Shown here piece by piece: positions 3,585-16,353 of a stretch of DNA of 32,559 nt. The stretch is from a virus (lineage: Duplodnaviria; Heunggongvirae; Uroviricota; Caudoviricetes). The notes beneath the pieces were generated by a model. It saw only the letters and a list, made by a program, of their open reading frames with translations, was not told the origin of the DNA and searched no databases. The stretch's first letter is position 1. The number at the start of each line of letters is the position of its first letter. The position numbers and the translations under genes are program-made. The DNA lies in the IMG/VR virus record IMGVR_UViG_2675903654_000020, positions 1 to 32,559 of that record. One strand, given 5' to 3'.

Positions 3585-3650
3585 CCCAGTTAACATTACG
3601 CGTCCTGCAAGACGCTTAACATTAATCTGAGGCCAATTTCATGCCAGACA
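3585..3650 (-). ncRNA. predicted Sok-like antisense RNA of the hok locus (position approximate)
   Basis: Inferred from Hok/Sok family architecture (antisense RNA overlapping the mok start region); boundaries not resolved from sequence. Confidence 0.25.
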
Positions 3651-3853
3651 CATGTAGGTTAGCCTCTTACGTGCCGAAAGGCAAGGAGAAGCAGGCTATG
3701 AAGCAGCAAAAGGCGATGTTAATCGCCCTGATCGTCATCTGTTTAACCGTCATAGTGACGGCACTGGTAACGAGGAAAGACCTCTGCGAGGTACGAATCC
3801 GAACCGGCCAGACGGAGGTCGCTGTCTTCACAGCTTACGAACCTGAGGAGTAA
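3641..3853 (+). CDS. Mok-like overlapping reading frame of the hok locus
   Basis: ATG 3641 in frame with hok and ending at the same stop, as in hok/mok loci. Confidence 0.4.
   Translation: MPDTCRLASYVPKGKEKQAMKQQKAMLIALIVICLTVIVTALVTRKDLCEVRIRTGQTEVAVFTAYEPEE
3698..3853 (+). CDS. hokD: Hok-family type I toxin (51 aa), HokD/RelF-like
   Basis: Protein MKQQKAMLIALIVICLTVIVTALVTRKDLCEVRIRTGQTEVAVFTAYEPEE matches my recollection of HokD; single TM helix; leader homologous to hok mRNA; intrinsic terminator downstream. Confidence 0.8.
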   Translation: MKQQKAMLIALIVICLTVIVTALVTRKDLCEVRIRTGQTEVAVFTAYEPEE

Positions 3854-3921
3854 GAGACCCGGCGGGGGAGAAATCCCTCGCCACCTCTGATGTGTCAGGC
3901 ATCCTCAACGCACCCGCACTA

Positions 3922-3945
3922 AACCCGCTTCGGCGGGTTTTTTGT
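3922..3945 (+). terminator. Rho-independent terminator at the hok mRNA 3' end
   Basis: Stem CCCGC-TTCG-GCGGG followed by a run of 7 T. Confidence 0.7.
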
Positions 3946-4128
3946 TGCGCGCTGAATACGCAGTGTGAAAAATAACCATATATTTGATTATATACACAAC
4001 AAAAAATAAAAGTCATTGTACCTGCACATTAAATAATCAAATATACGGCGTGAAATAAATATTTTTCAGATTAATATTTTTGTCTCTATGTGGATATAAC
4101 CGTTTGTACTTATAAATCTGGAGGCATC

Positions 4129-5012: not shown

Positions 5013-5302
5013 TGGTGGATTTACGTAAAGCGGCGCGGGGGCAGATGTGCACCGTCAGAATCCCTGGATACTGCAATCACAATCCTGAAACGTCTGTGCT
5101 GGCGCATTACCGACTGGCGGGAACGTGTGGAACGGCGATAAAACCACACGATATGCAGGCAGCGATTGCCTGTAGCTCGTGCCACGATTTAATCGACGGG
5201 CGGGTAAAAACCAGCGATTACACCAAAGAAGAATTACGCCTGATGCATGCAGAAGGTGTTTTTCGCACACAAGAAATCTGGAGAAAGGAAGGTTATTTAT
5301 GA
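5012..5302 (+). CDS. Cys-rich putative zinc-binding protein (96 aa)
   Basis: ATG overlaps previous stop (TAATG); Cys clusters CxxxxxxxxC and CxxC-like (CSSCH). Confidence 0.5.
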   Translation: MVDLRKAARGQMCTVRIPGYCNHNPETSVLAHYRLAGTCGTAIKPHDMQAAIACSSCHDLIDGRVKTSDYTKEELRLMHAEGVFRTQEIWRKEGYL

Positions 5303-5853
5303 TTTACCCAACGAATACAGGAAAAAGCGGAGAACACCTTCGTCTCACCACGCTGGAAAGTGTCTGGATTCAGGGGAAACTGCGTATGTGGGGGCGCTGG
5401 TCGTATATTGGTGGCGGTAAGACGGGGAATATGTTTAACCAGATGTTGACCTCTAAAAAGCTGACAAAAACGGCAATTAACGAGGCGCTCCGGAGGATGA
5501 AAAAAGCAGGGCTGGACAAACCTGAACTTGAGGCTTTTTTGCGGGATATGATCAACGGCAAGCAAAAAAGCTGGCTGGTGCATTGTACTGATGCAGAGGC
5601 GTTATGCATTGATCGGGTGATTAGTGAAGTGCTGGCAGAACACCCAGGATTGATTTGTATCCTCCGGCAACGATATGAAGGGAGGGGGATGACTAAGCGA
5701 AAAATGGCTGAATTGCTGAATGGTTCACACCCTGAGTGGTGTTACGCCACGTGCCGTAATCGCATAGATGCGTGGTTGAAAATGGCAGAGTTTATGCTCT
5801 ATCTGCCGATGCGTGATGCATTCTCTTCCGGGGATCTAAAAACCGTCTGTTGA
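5299..5853 (+). CDS. late-gene antiterminator Q-like protein (184 aa)
   Basis: ATG 5299 with AAGGAAGG RBS, overlapping previous stop (ATGA); immediately followed by a near-consensus promoter and a terminator, the classic Q-pR'-tR' arrangement; family assignment by position and recollection, not by search. Confidence 0.55.
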   Translation: MIYPTNTGKSGEHLRLTTLESVWIQGKLRMWGRWSYIGGGKTGNMFNQMLTSKKLTKTAINEALRRMKKAGLDKPELEAFLRDMINGKQKSWLVHCTDAEALCIDRVISEVLAEHPGLICILRQRYEGRGMTKRKMAELLNGSHPEWCYATCRNRIDAWLKMAEFMLYLPMRDAFSSGDLKTVC

Positions 5854-6123: not shown

Positions 6124-6735
6124 ATGACAACTCAAATTTCTGTTGAAACTCTCTCCCCTATCACCCATAACCAGATTCCTGTTATTACCACCGAACTTTT
6201 GGCGCAGCTTTACGGCACTGAGCCGGTGCGTATTCGCCAGAATCATCATGAGAACAAAGCACGCTTCGTTGAAGGGAAACACTTTTTCAAAGTTGTTGGT
6301 AATGACCTTAAAGAATTGCGGGTAGCTTTAAACTACTCACAAAATTTGCGGGTTACTTTAAGTAACTCACAAAATTTGCAACCATCTTTAAGAGGGTTAC
6401 AAATTTCCCCGAAAGCCCGCTCCCTTATCCTCTGGACAGAACGAGGCGCAGCCCGTCACGCCAAAATGCTCGAAACCGATCAGGCGTGGGATGTGTTCGA
6501 AAAACTGGAAGACTGCTATTTCAGACAAAAGGATCTGTCAGCGCCAGCTTCATGCCAGAAAAGTTACGACACGCGAGTTCTCTGTTATCAGCGAGGCGGT
6601 GTCACTGTTTCCACAATTCAGTTGCGGGATGATGATATTGTTATTTCCCTTGAGTCATGGCTGGAACTGGCGAGAGCCAATGGTTGGTTTGTTGTTCGCA
6701 GAGATAAACTGGTGGAAAGGCTGATGCAGCTTTAA
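6124..6735 (+). CDS. ORF6N-domain (Bro-N/antirepressor-like) protein
   Basis: N-terminal ORF6N-like region (IPVITTELLAQLYGTEPVRIRQNHHENKARFVEGKHFFKV) and conserved LILWTERGAARHAKMLETDQAWDVFEKLE segment; ATG with AGAGGG RBS. Confidence 0.65.
   Translation: MTTQISVETLSPITHNQIPVITTELLAQLYGTEPVRIRQNHHENKARFVEGKHFFKVVGNDLKELRVALNYSQNLRVTLSNSQNLQPSLRGLQISPKARSLILWTERGAARHAKMLETDQAWDVFEKLEDCYFRQKDLSAPASCQKSYDTRVLCYQRGGVTVSTIQLRDDDIVISLESWLELARANGWFVVRRDKLVERLMQL
6318..6377 (+). repeat. two tandem 30-bp units (25/30 identical) inside the ORF6N gene, with a degenerate third copy to about 6406
   Basis: Units 6318-6347 and 6348-6377; each contains a near-palindrome (for example GTTAC-TTTAA-GTAAC); in frame, encoding a 10-aa repeat. 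Confidence 0.6.
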
Positions 6736-6830
6736 AAAAGTTCTTGCAATTTTAGCCATAAACTGCTTCAATTCCGGTACGCTTCGCAAAGCTGTATCGC
6801 GAGGCGAATCAAGCGCATGAACTTTACCAG

Positions 6831-6859
6831 AACCCGCCATTGAGCGGGTTTTGTTGTTT
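6831..6859 (+). terminator. intrinsic terminator after the ORF6N gene
   Basis: Stem CCCGC / GCGGG with CATTGA loop followed by a T-rich tract. Confidence 0.55.
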
Positions 6860-7082
6860 CTGACGGATAGAAAAATGAAATAGCTAAATAAAAAGAATGC
6901 ATTGGATGCCATATATTGGCAACGTGACGACAGCGTTAATCTGGTCGGGCTCCCATGGCGACGTAGTGAGGGAGAGGAAGCGTAAAGCATCACTGAGTTA
7001 CGGTTGGCACCCGGTTTAACGCGTAAGTAGCCTGATAAAGAGATAGTGCACCGCGGCACTCACAGCGGCAACGATTAACTGA

Positions 7083-7107
7083 CCTCGGCATTTGCCGGGG
7101 TTTTTTT
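7083..7107 (+). terminator. strong intrinsic terminator upstream of the lysis genes
   Basis: 7-bp GC-rich stem (CCTCGGC / GCCGGGG) with 4-nt loop followed by 7 T. Confidence 0.65.
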
Positions 7108-7207
7108 ATTTAAGGCCGCAGACAGGCCCATTTAGTGCAACGCCTTTCCCCGTTTCCGCTCCTGGAATATTCGGGGATTTTTTATTCCCTCAATTTGCAC
7201 CCGCGAT

Positions 7208-7567
7208 ATGTGCGAGGTGAGAGATGATGAAATGCCTCATAACCCAAATACCTGGCCGGACTGGCTGGAGTTGTTTCAGAGCTGGTGGCGTGGAGACACA
7301 CCGCTGGGTGCAGTGATTATGTCGATCGTTATGGCTGGTTTGCGCATCGCCTATTTTGGCGGTGGTGGGGGCTGGAAACGAAAAACGCTTGAGATTTTGC
7401 TCTGTGGTGCCCTGACGCTGACCTTTGCATCCGCGCTTGAGTATGTCGGATGGCCTAAATCACTTTCTGTTGCCATTGGTGGTGGGGTGGGGCTGATTGG
7501 TGTTGATGCTATTCGTGGTGCGGCAATGAGGGTCATCGGTAACAAGTTCGGTGCCCATAAGGAGTAA
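7208..7567 (+). CDS. phage holin, class I-like (3 predicted TM helices), possible dual start
   Basis: Three hydrophobic segments and a charged C-terminus; in-frame ATGs at 7208 and 7232 (the latter with GAGGTGA RBS); directly upstream of the endolysin. Confidence 0.7.
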   Translation: MCEVRDDEMPHNPNTWPDWLELFQSWWRGDTPLGAVIMSIVMAGLRIAYFGGGGGWKRKTLEILLCGALTLTFASALEYVGWPKSLSVAIGGGVGLIGVDAIRGAAMRVIGNKFGAHKE

Positions 7568-8752: not shown

Positions 8753-8809
8753 CATTACAGAAGCTCCTTTGATAAGGGGCTTCGATAATGTCACTAAGAG
8801 GAAAAATTC

Positions 8810-14775: not shown

Positions 14776-15717
14776 ATGATTACTTTTGATCAGGCAACCG
14801 TTGACAACTCTGGTGCCTTTCTCATCGGGGAGCTGGAGCGACTCGACCAGACGCTGAACCTGCCACTGGTGGGGTACACCTGGACCCGCGATATTCAGTT
14901 GCGTGAAGATGTCTCTATCGCAGATGACATTTCCAGCTGGACGAATACCAGCTTCGCCGCTGCGGGTACTGGTGCAAATCCGAATGGCAAAAACTGGGTA
15001 GGCAAAGACTCAACCGCTATTGCTGGCGTGAACGTGGATATCGGCAAATCCGGTAACCCGCTGAACCTTTGGGGGATGGAACTTGGCTGGACGGTCATAG
15101 AATTGCAGGCTGCTCAGCAGATCGGACGCCCGATTGATACGCAGAAGTATGACGGGATGCAACTGAAATGGCAGATGGATAACGATGAACAGGTATATGT
15201 TGGCGATTCCGCATTAAACCTGAAAGGTCTTGTTACCCTGGACGGCGTGCCTGTCAACAACGCTGCCAAAACGTGGGCAACCTCAACACCGGACGAAATC
15301 CGCGCAAGCATTAACCAGGTGCTGTCTGATGCGTGGGCCGCTTCCGGTTACTCTGTGGTTCCGCGTGATTTGCTGATCCCGCCTGAGCAGTTTGCTCTGT
15401 TGTCCAGCATCATCGTTTCATCTGCGGGTAACCAGTCCCTGTTGACGTACCTTCAGACCAACACCATCAGCTATCACCAGAACGGTATTCCGCTGAATAT
15501 CCGCGCGGTTAAATGGCTGAAAGGCCGTGGTGTGGGGAATAAGGATCGCATGGTTGCGTACACCAACGATAAAAAATACGTCCGCTACCCGCTGGTTCCG
15601 CTTCAGAGCGTGCCGGTGCAGTATCGCGGTCTGTATCAGATCGTCACTTACTACGGCAAGCTGGGTGCAGTCGAGCCAGTGTACAAAGAAACCATTTCGT
15701 ACGTTGATGGCATTTAA
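14776..15717 (+). CDS. major capsid protein (putative)
   Basis: 313 aa ORF with strong AAGGA RBS in the head module; hairpin immediately downstream. Confidence 0.55.
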   Translation: MITFDQATVDNSGAFLIGELERLDQTLNLPLVGYTWTRDIQLREDVSIADDISSWTNTSFAAAGTGANPNGKNWVGKDSTAIAGVNVDIGKSGNPLNLWGMELGWTVIELQAAQQIGRPIDTQKYDGMQLKWQMDNDEQVYVGDSALNLKGLVTLDGVPVNNAAKTWATSTPDEIRASINQVLSDAWAASGYSVVPRDLLIPPEQFALLSSIIVSSAGNQSLLTYLQTNTISYHQNGIPLNIRAVKWLKGRGVGNKDRMVAYTNDKKYVRYPLVPLQSVPVQYRGLYQIVTYYGKLGAVEPVYKETISYVDGI

Positions 15718-15758
15718 CAGCCACATGGCCCCCTGGCGGGGCCATTAAGGATGACCCG

Positions 15759-15980
15759 ATGGCAAAAAATAATGCAGTAATACACGTACATACCCCGTTT
15801 GTGCTCACGCTTCCCGACGGTTCACGGCGCGAGTTTGTTAAAGGCCGTCATGCTGTGGAGGAAGACGTTGCCACGCACTGGTTCACTCGTGCGCACGCGG
15901 AAGTATCCGTTGGCAAAGCCACAGACGCGCGTAACGAGGTAAAAAATGCCAAAGAATCAAAGTCTGCCAGCGGTAAGTGA
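15759..15980 (+). CDS. hypothetical small head/neck protein
   Basis: ATG with AAGGA RBS; overlaps next gene by 35 bp. Confidence 0.35.
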
Positions 15981-16353
15981 TTTTCGCCGCGACTTCCCGC
16001 AGTTTGCTGACCCTGCCAAATATCCCGAAGCGCAAATCCAGTTTCGTCTGAATCTGGCCGATGAACTGCTGAGCGAAAACGTCACCGGCAAAAAGTTGTT
16101 TCCGTACTTTGCCGGGTTGTTCGTTGCGCACTACATGACACTCTGGGCGGCAGACAGCCGGGCGATGCTGGCTGGTGGTTCGGGCGGTTCAACCAATGGT
16201 GTTCAGTCCTCAAAGTCCGTGGATAAGGTAAGCGTCAGTTATGACACCAGCGCGACGCTGAATCCTGATGCAGGTTTCTGGAATAACACCCGATATGGCG
16301 CTGAATTTTATCAGTTGATCACGATGTTCGGTGCAGGCGGTCGCCAGCTATGA
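15946..16353 (+). CDS. head-tail connector/completion protein (putative)
   Basis: ATG with GAGGT RBS; gene order. Confidence 0.45.

What the first reader, a model, noticed from the sequence alone, without database searches (positions are those of the whole stretch)
15727..15743. GC hairpin immediately after the major capsid gene
GGCCCC-CTGGC-GGGGCC forms a 6-bp stem right after the capsid stop and before the next RBS, with no U-tract. Such structures after highly expressed capsid genes often act as partial terminators or mRNA stabilisers that set head-to-tail protein stoichiometry.
Basis: seen in the sequence. Interest (0 to 1): 0.2.

Follow-up and report, generated by a model that had tools for sequence, protein, structure and literature searches.

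The report
Conserved RNA hairpin after capsid gene
A small GC-rich RNA hairpin sits just after the major capsid gene of this E. coli prophage and is kept at the same spot in related phages, where it most likely protects the capsid part of the long late mRNA from decay; this kind of element is already known, so the finding is real but ordinary.

Summary
The hairpin exists and is slightly larger than described: ATGGCCCC-CTGGC-GGGGCCAT, an 8-bp stem at 15725-15745. It starts 8 nt after the stop of a PF09950 major capsid gene and ends 1 nt before the AAGGA ribosome-binding site of the next gene. There is no U-tract on either strand.

In the window alone it is only mildly unusual (shuffle p about 0.007). 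Comparison makes it convincing:
- 46 of 50 distinct post-capsid spacers of 25 nt or more in related phages and prophages carry a stable hairpin there.
- The stems differ by compensatory changes.
- 30 of 39 tetraloops are GNRA on the + strand.
- About a third of these hairpins are full intrinsic terminators with U-tracts. Relatives without a spacer have no hairpin.

So this is a U-tract-less variant of a recurrent post-capsid terminator hairpin, selected as + strand RNA.

The prophage encodes a Q-like antiterminator, and canonical terminators lie inside its late operon. Real termination at a U-less hairpin is therefore unlikely. I favour a barrier to 3'-to-5' exonucleases that stabilises the head-gene part of the mRNA (confidence about 0.5). 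Weak termination and insulation of the downstream ribosome-binding site are the rivals. No transcript data could be examined. Interest is low.

The parts
14776..15717 (+). Major capsid protein gene (313 aa), stop TAA at 15715-15717
   Evidence: Pfam PF09950 Major_capside, E 1.3e-87. It is preceded by a DUF2213 gene and a cement/minor capsid gene, PF23982.
15725..15745 (+). RNA hairpin: 8-bp perfect stem ATGGCCCC/GGGGCCAT with loop CUGGC.
   Evidence: Pair probability is 0.97-0.98. It is conserved in position with covarying stems in relatives. It occurs once in the window.
15747..15751 (+). Shine-Dalgarno AAGGA of the downstream gene, 7 nt before the ATG, starting 2 nt after the stem
   Evidence: Read from the sequence. 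The same hairpin-then-SD layout is seen in relatives: AGAAGGA, ACAGGAG.
15759..15980 (+). Downstream gene, 73 aa, STY1053-family phage-associated protein of unknown function
   Evidence: NCBIfam NF047914, E 2.8e-20. PHROG 6497, E 6e-52. PGAP uses the same name in E. coli genomes.
5179..5853 (+). Context: Q-like late antiterminator candidate
   Evidence: PHROG 753 'anti-termination protein Q-like', E 3e-80. Pfam DUF1133, E 1e-106. PF06530 Phage_antitermQ scores 26.2 bits against a cut-off of 26.
6828..6862 (+). Context: canonical intrinsic terminator (AACCCGCC-AUUGA-GCGGGUU followed by UUGUUGUUU) between the Q/anti-repressor genes and the lysis genes. A second one lies at 7081-7110.
24896..24925 (+). 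Context: canonical intrinsic terminator (AACCCGCC-ACCC-GGCGGGUU followed by UUUUGCUUU) inside the late operon, just before the baseplate genes (ATG at 24940)
   Evidence: Baseplate genes lie downstream.

Best explanation
The element is an intercistronic stem-loop that acts as + strand RNA within the long late (head-tail) transcript of a lambdoid-regulated myovirus prophage. It is the U-tract-less form of a hairpin that recurs directly after the major capsid gene in this phage group.

Proposed mechanism (inferred, not shown). Late transcription by Q-modified, terminator-resistant RNA polymerase runs through the site. The hairpin folds once the RNA has emerged. After endonucleolytic cuts downstream, it blocks 3'-to-5' exonucleases (PNPase, RNase II). 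The upstream segment (terminase to capsid) therefore outlives the neck and tail segment, and more capsid protein is made per transcript. At most a small fraction of polymerases would stop here.

The stem starts 5 nt or more after the stop codon in every relative. It could therefore stay folded while ribosomes terminate on the capsid gene.
For: Shown:
- The hairpin is real, stable and forms with probability 0.97-0.98.
- A hairpin of -10 kcal/mol or better lies between the capsid stop and the next SD in 46 of 50 distinct spacers of 25 nt or more from related phages and prophages of many Enterobacterales genera. Shuffle p is 0.05 or less in each, with a median of 0.005. The 33 relatives without a spacer have none. 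The spacer (35-45 nt) is essentially hairpin plus SD.
- Stems differ by compensatory changes (GGCCCC, AGCCCC, GCGGCCC, GGCGGG and others). All six inner pairs show two-sided changes, and 92.5% of cells are paired against 31-67% when partners are slid.
- 30 of 39 tetraloops are GNRA on the + strand, where 1 in 32 is expected. A population variant gives G-U on the + strand, which would be A-C on the minus strand. This points to selection on the sense RNA.
- 26 distinct hairpins have 2 or fewer U in the 8-nt tail. The hairpin is thus kept without the element needed for termination.
- There is a Q-like gene, terminators between it and the lysis genes, and a canonical terminator directly ahead of the baseplate genes. 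Late transcription must read through terminators.

From established knowledge: intercistronic hairpins such as REP in malE-malF and the puf operon stabilise upstream mRNA segments (references listed in PMC7509114). Terminator hairpins also raise upstream mRNA abundance (PMC11696848).
Against: - No transcript, 3'-end or half-life data exist for this phage or its relatives (literature searches).
- The stem has only 8 bp and is far weaker than the -22 to -28 kcal/mol reported as best for stabilisation.
- About a third of relatives carry a full U-tract, so termination may be the ancestral and main function.
- The Q assignment rests on family names and a borderline Pfam score. The late promoter was not mapped.
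- The covariation alignment was anchored on the best hairpin of each spacer, so its pairing percentage is partly circular.
Confidence: 0.5

Rival explanations
1. Weak (partial) intrinsic terminator. A fraction of RNA polymerases release the transcript at the hairpin, which lowers transcription of the neck and tail genes relative to the head genes.
For: - At the homologous site many relatives have textbook terminators, e.g. AGCCCCUUCACAGGGGCUUUUUU, GGCGGGGAAACCCGCCUUUUUUU and Edwardsiella phage ZHS.
- More distant phages with the same capsid family also have them. KpV79 carries an annotated rho-independent terminator, and VchM-138 and RHEph06 have canonical ones.
- A terminator at the end of the procapsid module inside the late operon is noted for phage L and P22, with partial termination offered as a possible role.
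- Inefficient terminators that balance phage gene expression are documented for T7 and LUZ7.
Against: - Only 2 U in the 8 nt after the stem, where the purine-rich SD sits instead. The U-tract is a defining feature of intrinsic terminators (abstract of 10.64898/2026.05.29.728758).
- The consensus scan does not call it a terminator.
- The Q-like antiterminator and the canonical terminators within the late operon imply terminator-resistant transcription.
- 26 distinct relatives keep the hairpin with no U-tract.
Confidence: 0.2
2. Translational insulator. The hairpin separates capsid translation from the downstream STY1053-family gene. It locks up the G/C-rich spacer so that the SD stays exposed, and replaces the stop-start coupling seen in hairpin-free relatives with independent initiation.
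For: - The stem always ends 12-20 nt before the start codon, with the SD directly after it.
- Hairpin-free relatives have overlapping or abutting stop, SD and start.
- In silico SD accessibility is 0.65 with the native hairpin and 0.23 with the hairpin deleted.
- The hairpin and the downstream gene are exchanged together as one cassette between otherwise 98-100% identical prophages.
Against: - Native SD accessibility is not significantly above that of shuffled hairpin sequences (0.52 +/- 0.18; 26% of shuffles are as high or higher).
- This does not explain why a third of relatives add a U-tract, or why distant phages place terminators at the same spot.
- The tight geometry may simply reflect a minimal spacer.
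Confidence: 0.12
3. No present function. The hairpin is a decayed terminator or a by-product of a recombination junction at a module boundary.
For: - A mosaic breakpoint lies at the capsid 3' end. The stretch of about 15690-15975 is swapped between E. coli prophages whose flanks are 98-100% identical.
- The C-run in the 5' arm and loop varies from 4 to 9 C in the population.
- In the window alone the hairpin is only mildly unusual.
Against: - Pairing is maintained through many different stem sequences across genera.
- GNRA loops are about 25-fold enriched.
- Population variants spare or preserve pairing in all but one sequence.
- A relic would not persist this way.
Confidence: 0.06
4. Binding site for a protein: an RNA operator for a phage translational repressor, or a palindromic DNA site.
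For: It is a perfect palindrome next to a ribosome-binding site, and it travels with the downstream gene.
Against: - The stem sequence is not conserved; only the pairing is. The loops are generic GNRA rather than a specific motif.
- GNRA bias and G-U pairs argue against a double-stranded DNA site.
- There is no Rfam match.
- The stem is too short (8-9 bp) for RNase III, which needs about two helical turns (established knowledge).
Confidence: 0.04

Closest known systems
Intra-late-operon terminator at the end of the procapsid (coat) gene module of P22-like phages (phage L, P22)
   Same: A lambdoid, Q-type antiterminated late operon carries a hairpin element directly after the capsid gene module. 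The authors state that its role is unknown and that partial termination or stopping spurious transcripts are possibilities (bioRxiv 10.1101/2020.10.05.325894).
   Different: Those elements are predicted rho-independent terminators with U-tracts, whereas the window's hairpin has none. The capsid family and virion type also differ (podovirus versus a PF09950-capsid myovirus).
Rho-independent terminators after the major capsid gene in other PF09950-capsid phages (Klebsiella phage KpV79, Vibrio phage VchM-138, Rhizobium phage RHEph06, Edwardsiella phage ZHS, and Raoultella, Enterobacter and Citrobacter prophages)
   Same: Same gene neighbourhood and same position, a few nt after the capsid stop. 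They are GC-rich stems, often with GNRA or UUCG-like loops.
   Different: They carry a run of 5-7 U after the stem. In the window the U-tract is replaced by the SD.
Intercistronic mRNA-stabilising hairpins (REP in malE-malF; the puf operon hairpins of Rhodobacter; papB-papA)
   Same: A stable stem-loop without terminator activity lies 3' of the cistron needed in larger amounts within a polycistronic mRNA. These elements block 3' exonucleases and give segmental differences in stability (references in PMC7509114; mechanism from established knowledge).
   Different: The window's hairpin is not a REP element. It occurs once, has no REP consensus and is a single short 8-bp hairpin. A stabilising effect is not demonstrated here.
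T7 T-phi terminator after the major capsid gene 10
   Same: An RNA hairpin right after the capsid gene lets only part of transcription continue into the downstream tail genes (own knowledge; inefficient T7 terminators that balance expression are cited in PMC9163698).
   Different: T-phi acts on T7 RNA polymerase and has a U-run. It is a true terminator of measured efficiency.

Membership tests
Canonical intrinsic (Rho-independent) terminator | GC-rich RNA hairpin with a short loop | tested here: met
   8-bp stem with 6 G-C pairs and a 5-nt loop; -14.7 kcal/mol for the bare hairpin.
Canonical intrinsic (Rho-independent) terminator | U-rich tract directly 3' of the stem | tested here: not met
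   The tail is UAAGGAUG, with 2 U in 8 nt. The consensus scan does not report it. The minus-strand tail GUGGCUGU is also not U-rich.
Canonical intrinsic (Rho-independent) terminator | Releases transcripts (measured termination efficiency) | not testable with these tools
   This needs in vitro transcription or 3'-end sequencing.
Intercistronic mRNA stabiliser hairpin (works like REP or the puf hairpins) | Stable stem-loop 3' of the more highly required cistron, inside a polycistronic unit | tested here: met
   It lies between the capsid gene and the neck and tail genes. It is the only hairpin-bearing gap in the head module, where the other gaps are about 10 nt.
Intercistronic mRNA stabiliser hairpin (works like REP or the puf hairpins) | Selection acts on RNA pairing rather than on sequence | tested here: met
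   Two-sided changes occur at all six inner pairs and 92.5% of cells are paired. GNRA loops number 30 of 39. A G-U variant exists. Caveat: the alignment was anchored on the hairpins.
Intercistronic mRNA stabiliser hairpin (works like REP or the puf hairpins) | The upstream segment is more stable or abundant, and this depends on the hairpin | not testable with these tools
   No transcript data are available.
REP / BIME repeat | A dispersed repeated palindromic sequence with the REP consensus | tested here: not met
   The pattern occurs once in the window even with 2 mismatches allowed. The stem sequence differs among relatives.
RNase III processing site | A duplex of about 20 bp or more | tested here: not met
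   The stem is 8 bp (9 bp in some alleles), with no extended duplex in the fold.
Any curated RNA family (Rfam 15) | Match to a covariance model | tested here: not met
   No match at E up to 10 in 15500-16000 on either strand.

The most novel reading that the evidence does not exclude
The U-tract-less, GNRA-capped hairpin could be a distinct regulatory device rather than a degenerate terminator. It lies just outside the footprint of a ribosome terminating on the capsid gene (stem start 5-13 nt after the stop) and abuts the next SD. It might therefore couple the expression or decay of the downstream neck and tail mRNA to capsid translation, or serve as an operator for a phage RNA-binding protein. 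That would explain why it is exchanged as a unit with the STY1053-family gene.
Probability: 0.07. Interest if true: 0.5.

Novelty: new member of a known kind. Interest (0 to 1): 0.2.

Why it matters
Tailed phages need hundreds of capsid subunits for each handful of neck and tail proteins, yet many transcribe all of them from one antiterminated late operon. Hairpins placed right after the capsid gene are a simple way to set that ratio, and authors have noted them with the comment that their role is unknown.

This group of related phages offers a natural series at one site: no hairpin, hairpin without a U-tract, and hairpin with a U-tract. That series could be used to separate termination from mRNA stabilisation experimentally. 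For annotation, it shows that such hairpins should not be labelled terminators by default. Beyond that, the element is ordinary.

Tried and rejected
- Consensus terminator scan: the hairpin is not called because it has no T-run.
- Rfam search of 15500-16000 at E up to 10: no match.
- REP or dispersed-repeat idea: single copy in the window.
- RNase III site: the stem is too short.
- Minus-strand function: the minus-strand hairpin is equally stable (-16.0 kcal/mol). It has no U-tail, there is no gene on that strand, and loop and G-U evidence favour the + strand.
- First scan of viral contigs with the capsid protein alone: only near-identical E. coli prophages came back. They were useful for polymorphism but not for covariation. 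An alignment query on genome contigs was needed.
- Literature searches for SEN34-like phages and for post-capsid stem-loops: no transcript maps found. The LF82 prophage Gally, checked as a possible relative with RNA-seq data, is P22/HK620-like and irrelevant.
- In silico SD accessibility with and without the hairpin: inconclusive.
- My automatic start-codon picking failed for a few loci (L003, L088, L102, L137, L157). The simple hairpin finder also missed the bulged terminator of phage ZHS (L089). These cases were read by eye.

Full report
**Observation.** The perfect stem is longer than described: ATGGCCCC / GGGGCCAT, 8 bp with 6 G-C pairs and loop CUGGC, spanning 15725-15745. It begins 8 nt after the TAA (15715-15717) of the ORF 14776-15717. 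That ORF matches Pfam PF09950 Major_capside at E 1.3e-87 and is preceded by DUF2213 and cement-protein genes. The stem ends 1 nt before the AAGGA Shine-Dalgarno (15747-15751) of a 73-aa ORF starting at 15759. This ORF belongs to the STY1053 family of phage-associated proteins, whose function is unknown. The 8 nt after the stem are UAAGGAUG, so there is no U-tract. The minus strand has none either, and the consensus terminator scan does not report the site.

**Is it more than chance?** In the window alone the evidence is modest.
- The 41-nt spacer folds at -17.2 kcal/mol, with a z-score of -1.7 against dinucleotide shuffles.
- The best simple hairpin of the spacer is matched by 0.7% of shuffles.
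- Only 0.3% of 41-nt windows on the + strand hold an equally stable simple hairpin. It ranks seventh among about 33 hairpins at or below -10 kcal/mol.
- In a 181-nt context the stem pairs have probability 0.97-0.98.
- There is no Rfam match, and the motif occurs once in the window.

**Relatives.** The stretch is part of an E. coli prophage present in 319 of 5426 complete E. coli genomes. It is 98.5% identical to Escherichia phages vB_EcoM-606R2, -689R2, -611R5 and -683R1. More distant relatives include Salmonella phage SEN34 (Brunovirus), Citrobacter phage Omnitron, Hafnia phage yong1 and several Klebsiella phages. All of these carry a GC hairpin at the same place with a different sequence:
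- Omnitron: GGCCCC-GAAA-GGGGCC
- SEN34: TGGCCCC-GAAA-GGGGCCA
- yong1: GGCCCCC-ATAT-GGGGGCC
- Mulock: GCGGCCC-GAAA-GGGCCGC

A scan of one genome per species with a capsid alignment returned 80 prophage loci, with these results:
- Of 50 distinct post-capsid spacers of 25 nt or more, 46 contain a hairpin of -10 kcal/mol or better with shuffle p of 0.05 or less (median 0.005).
- Of the four exceptions, three are artefacts of my start-codon or hairpin picking (L088, L157, L089). The fourth, L128, has a -10.7 kcal/mol hairpin whose shuffle p is 0.13.
- Thirty-three further loci have a spacer under 25 nt or overlapping genes, and no hairpin. These are Burkholderia, Cupriavidus, Pseudomonas, Acinetobacter, Dyella and Xenorhabdus.
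- The distribution is therefore bimodal: either no spacer, or a 35-45-nt spacer made of hairpin plus SD. Stems start 5-13 nt after the stop and end 12-20 nt before the start codon.

**Evidence that sense-strand RNA is the selected form.**
- On 36 distinct hairpins, all six inner pairs show two-sided changes (C-G to G-C, G-C to A-U). 92.5% of cells are paired, against 31-67% when the 3' partners are slid. The alignment was anchored on each spacer's best hairpin, so the pairing percentage is partly circular. The independent evidence is that a hairpin exists at all in 46 of 50 spacers.
- Thirty of 39 tetraloops are GNRA (GAAA 20, GCAA 5, GUAA 4, GCGA 1) on the + strand, where 1 in 32 is expected. 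This holds even in the class whose arms are inverted (GGCGGG-GAAA-CCCGCC).
- Among 80 near-identical E. coli prophages, the variants are mostly changes in C-run length and loop substitutions.
- One 3'-arm change gives G-U on the + strand. Only one sequence loses a (closing) pair.

**Relation to terminators.** At the same site 13 distinct relatives have 5-7 U in the 8-nt tail and are textbook intrinsic terminators. Examples are the Raoultella/Trabulsiella form AGCCCCUUCACAGGGGCUUUUUU, the Enterobacter/Citrobacter form GGCGGGGAAACCCGCCUUUUUUU, Morganella, and Pantoea stewartii. Seven have 3-4 U, and 26, including the window, have 2 or fewer.

Phages with more distant capsids of the same family show the same habit. 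Edwardsiella phage ZHS has a canonical terminator after the capsid gene, as do Vibrio phage VchM-138 and Rhizobium phage RHEph06. Klebsiella phage KpV79 has an annotated rho-independent terminator there. Vibrio phage K375 and Agathobaculum phage AB434P2 have none. The window's hairpin is thus the U-tract-less form of a recurrent post-capsid terminator hairpin. In the U-less forms the purine-rich SD occupies the place of the U-tract.

**Context that bears on mechanism.** The window is a prophage with lambdoid regulation:
- NinB, an HNH/NinG-like gene and a Q-like protein at 5179-5853. The Q-like assignment rests on PHROG 753 (E 3e-80), Pfam DUF1133 (E 1e-106) and PF06530 Phage_antitermQ scoring just at its cut-off.
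- An anti-repressor gene, followed by two canonical terminators (6828-6862 and 7081-7110) ahead of the holin gene at 7208.
- Lysis, terminase, portal, head, neck and tail genes, all on the + strand.
- Inside the tail module, a reverse-strand moron (24351-24716). It is flanked by a bidirectional terminator (24314-24347) and a canonical + strand terminator (24896-24925) placed immediately before the baseplate genes.

Any polymerase that expresses the baseplate and fibre genes must read through that last terminator. Together with the Q-like gene, this implies (by inference) that late transcription is terminator-resistant. That makes appreciable termination at a hairpin with no U-tract unlikely.

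**Most likely mechanism.** I favour an RNA-level role. Once transcribed, the hairpin forms and acts as a barrier to 3'-to-5' exonucleases after downstream endonucleolytic cleavage. This lengthens the life of the head-gene segment relative to the neck and tail segment. The principle is established for intercistronic hairpins such as REP in malE-malF and the puf operon (references in PMC7509114). Terminator hairpins are also reported to raise upstream mRNA abundance (PMC11696848).

- Shown: the presence, stability, conservation, covariation and strand bias of the hairpin; the retention of the hairpin without a U-tract; and the presence of terminators within the late operon.
- Inferred: the antitermination, the exonuclease block and any effect on stoichiometry.

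The minimum stop-to-stem distance of 5 nt would let the hairpin stay folded while ribosomes terminate. This rests on my own knowledge of the ribosome's mRNA footprint and was not tested.

**Rivals.**
1. Weak intrinsic termination is supported by the terminator relatives and by precedent. The phage L/P22 paper notes a terminator at the end of the procapsid module inside the late operon, says its role is unknown and names partial termination as one possibility. Inefficient terminators balance expression in T7 and LUZ7. The missing U-tract counts against it, since the U-tract is a defining terminator element. So does the antitermination context.
2. A translational insulator for the downstream gene fits the tight hairpin-SD geometry. 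It also fits a predicted fall in SD accessibility from 0.65 to 0.23 when the hairpin is deleted. However, the native value is not distinguishable from shuffled hairpins (0.52 +/- 0.18).
3. A neutral relic or recombination scar is suggested by a cassette swap. The stretch of about 15690-15975 (hairpin plus downstream gene) differs between prophages with 98-100% identical flanks. This reading is contradicted by the covariation and the loop bias.
4. A protein-binding site is unlikely because only pairing, not sequence, is conserved.

**Comparison with what is known, and novelty.** The element works like known post-capsid terminators and stabilisers: phage L/P22, T7 T-phi, and the annotated terminator of KpV79. 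It is not a canonical intrinsic terminator, because the U-tract test was not met. It is not a REP element, an RNase III site or a member of any Rfam family. It is a new member of a known kind.

The one point of modest interest is the natural series at a single homologous site: no hairpin, U-less hairpin, and full terminator. That series could be used to separate termination from stabilisation. Interest: 0.2.

Noticed in passing
window 15690-15975 (compare L029): Cassette exchange. E. coli prophages whose capsid and flanks are 98-100% identical carry one of two alleles of the spacer plus the STY1053-family gene: the window type of 73 aa, or a SEN34-like longer type with a GAAA-loop hairpin. Breakpoints lie at the capsid 3' end and at the start of the DUF4054 gene.
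   Followed up: partly
window 15729-15733 (C-run of the 5' arm and loop): The C-run varies from 4 to 9 C among near-identical prophages, and some alleles add a G to the 3' arm to give a 9-bp stem. This looks like homopolymer slippage that changes loop size but not pairing.
   Followed up: partly
window 24314-24925: A reverse-strand moron (24351-24716, 121 aa, no clear family) is inserted in the tail module. It is flanked by a bidirectional terminator (24314-24347) and a canonical + strand terminator (24896-24925) right before the baseplate genes.
   Followed up: partly
window 6740-7200: Between the anti-repressor gene and the holin gene lie a promoter-like stretch and two canonical terminators (6828-6862, 7081-7110). 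This resembles the PR'/tR' arrangement of lambdoid phages. The anti-repressor gene (6124-6735) sits between the Q-like gene and this region.
   Followed up: partly
window 8760-8783: A second intergenic hairpin without a U-tract lies in the late operon (GAAGCUCCUU-UGAU-AAGGGGCUUC, -14 kcal/mol), in the gap before the small terminase gene (8810).
   Followed up: no
window 22399-22438, minus strand: The most stable simple hairpin of the window (16 pairs including G-U, -27.6 kcal/mol) lies on the minus strand inside the + strand ORF 22037-22624. It is unexplained.
   Followed up: no
window 19422-20052: The tail assembly chaperone gene (19422-19874) is followed by a 177-nt gap before the tape-measure gene. 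Hairpins lie at 19535-19552 and 19956-19983. This is the usual place for a programmed frameshift product, but it was not examined.
   Followed up: no
window 3861-3950: In the early region, two hairpins follow the small ORF 3641-3853. One is a canonical terminator (AAACCCGC-UUCG-GCGGGUUU followed by UUUGUUG, 3921-3947).
   Followed up: no
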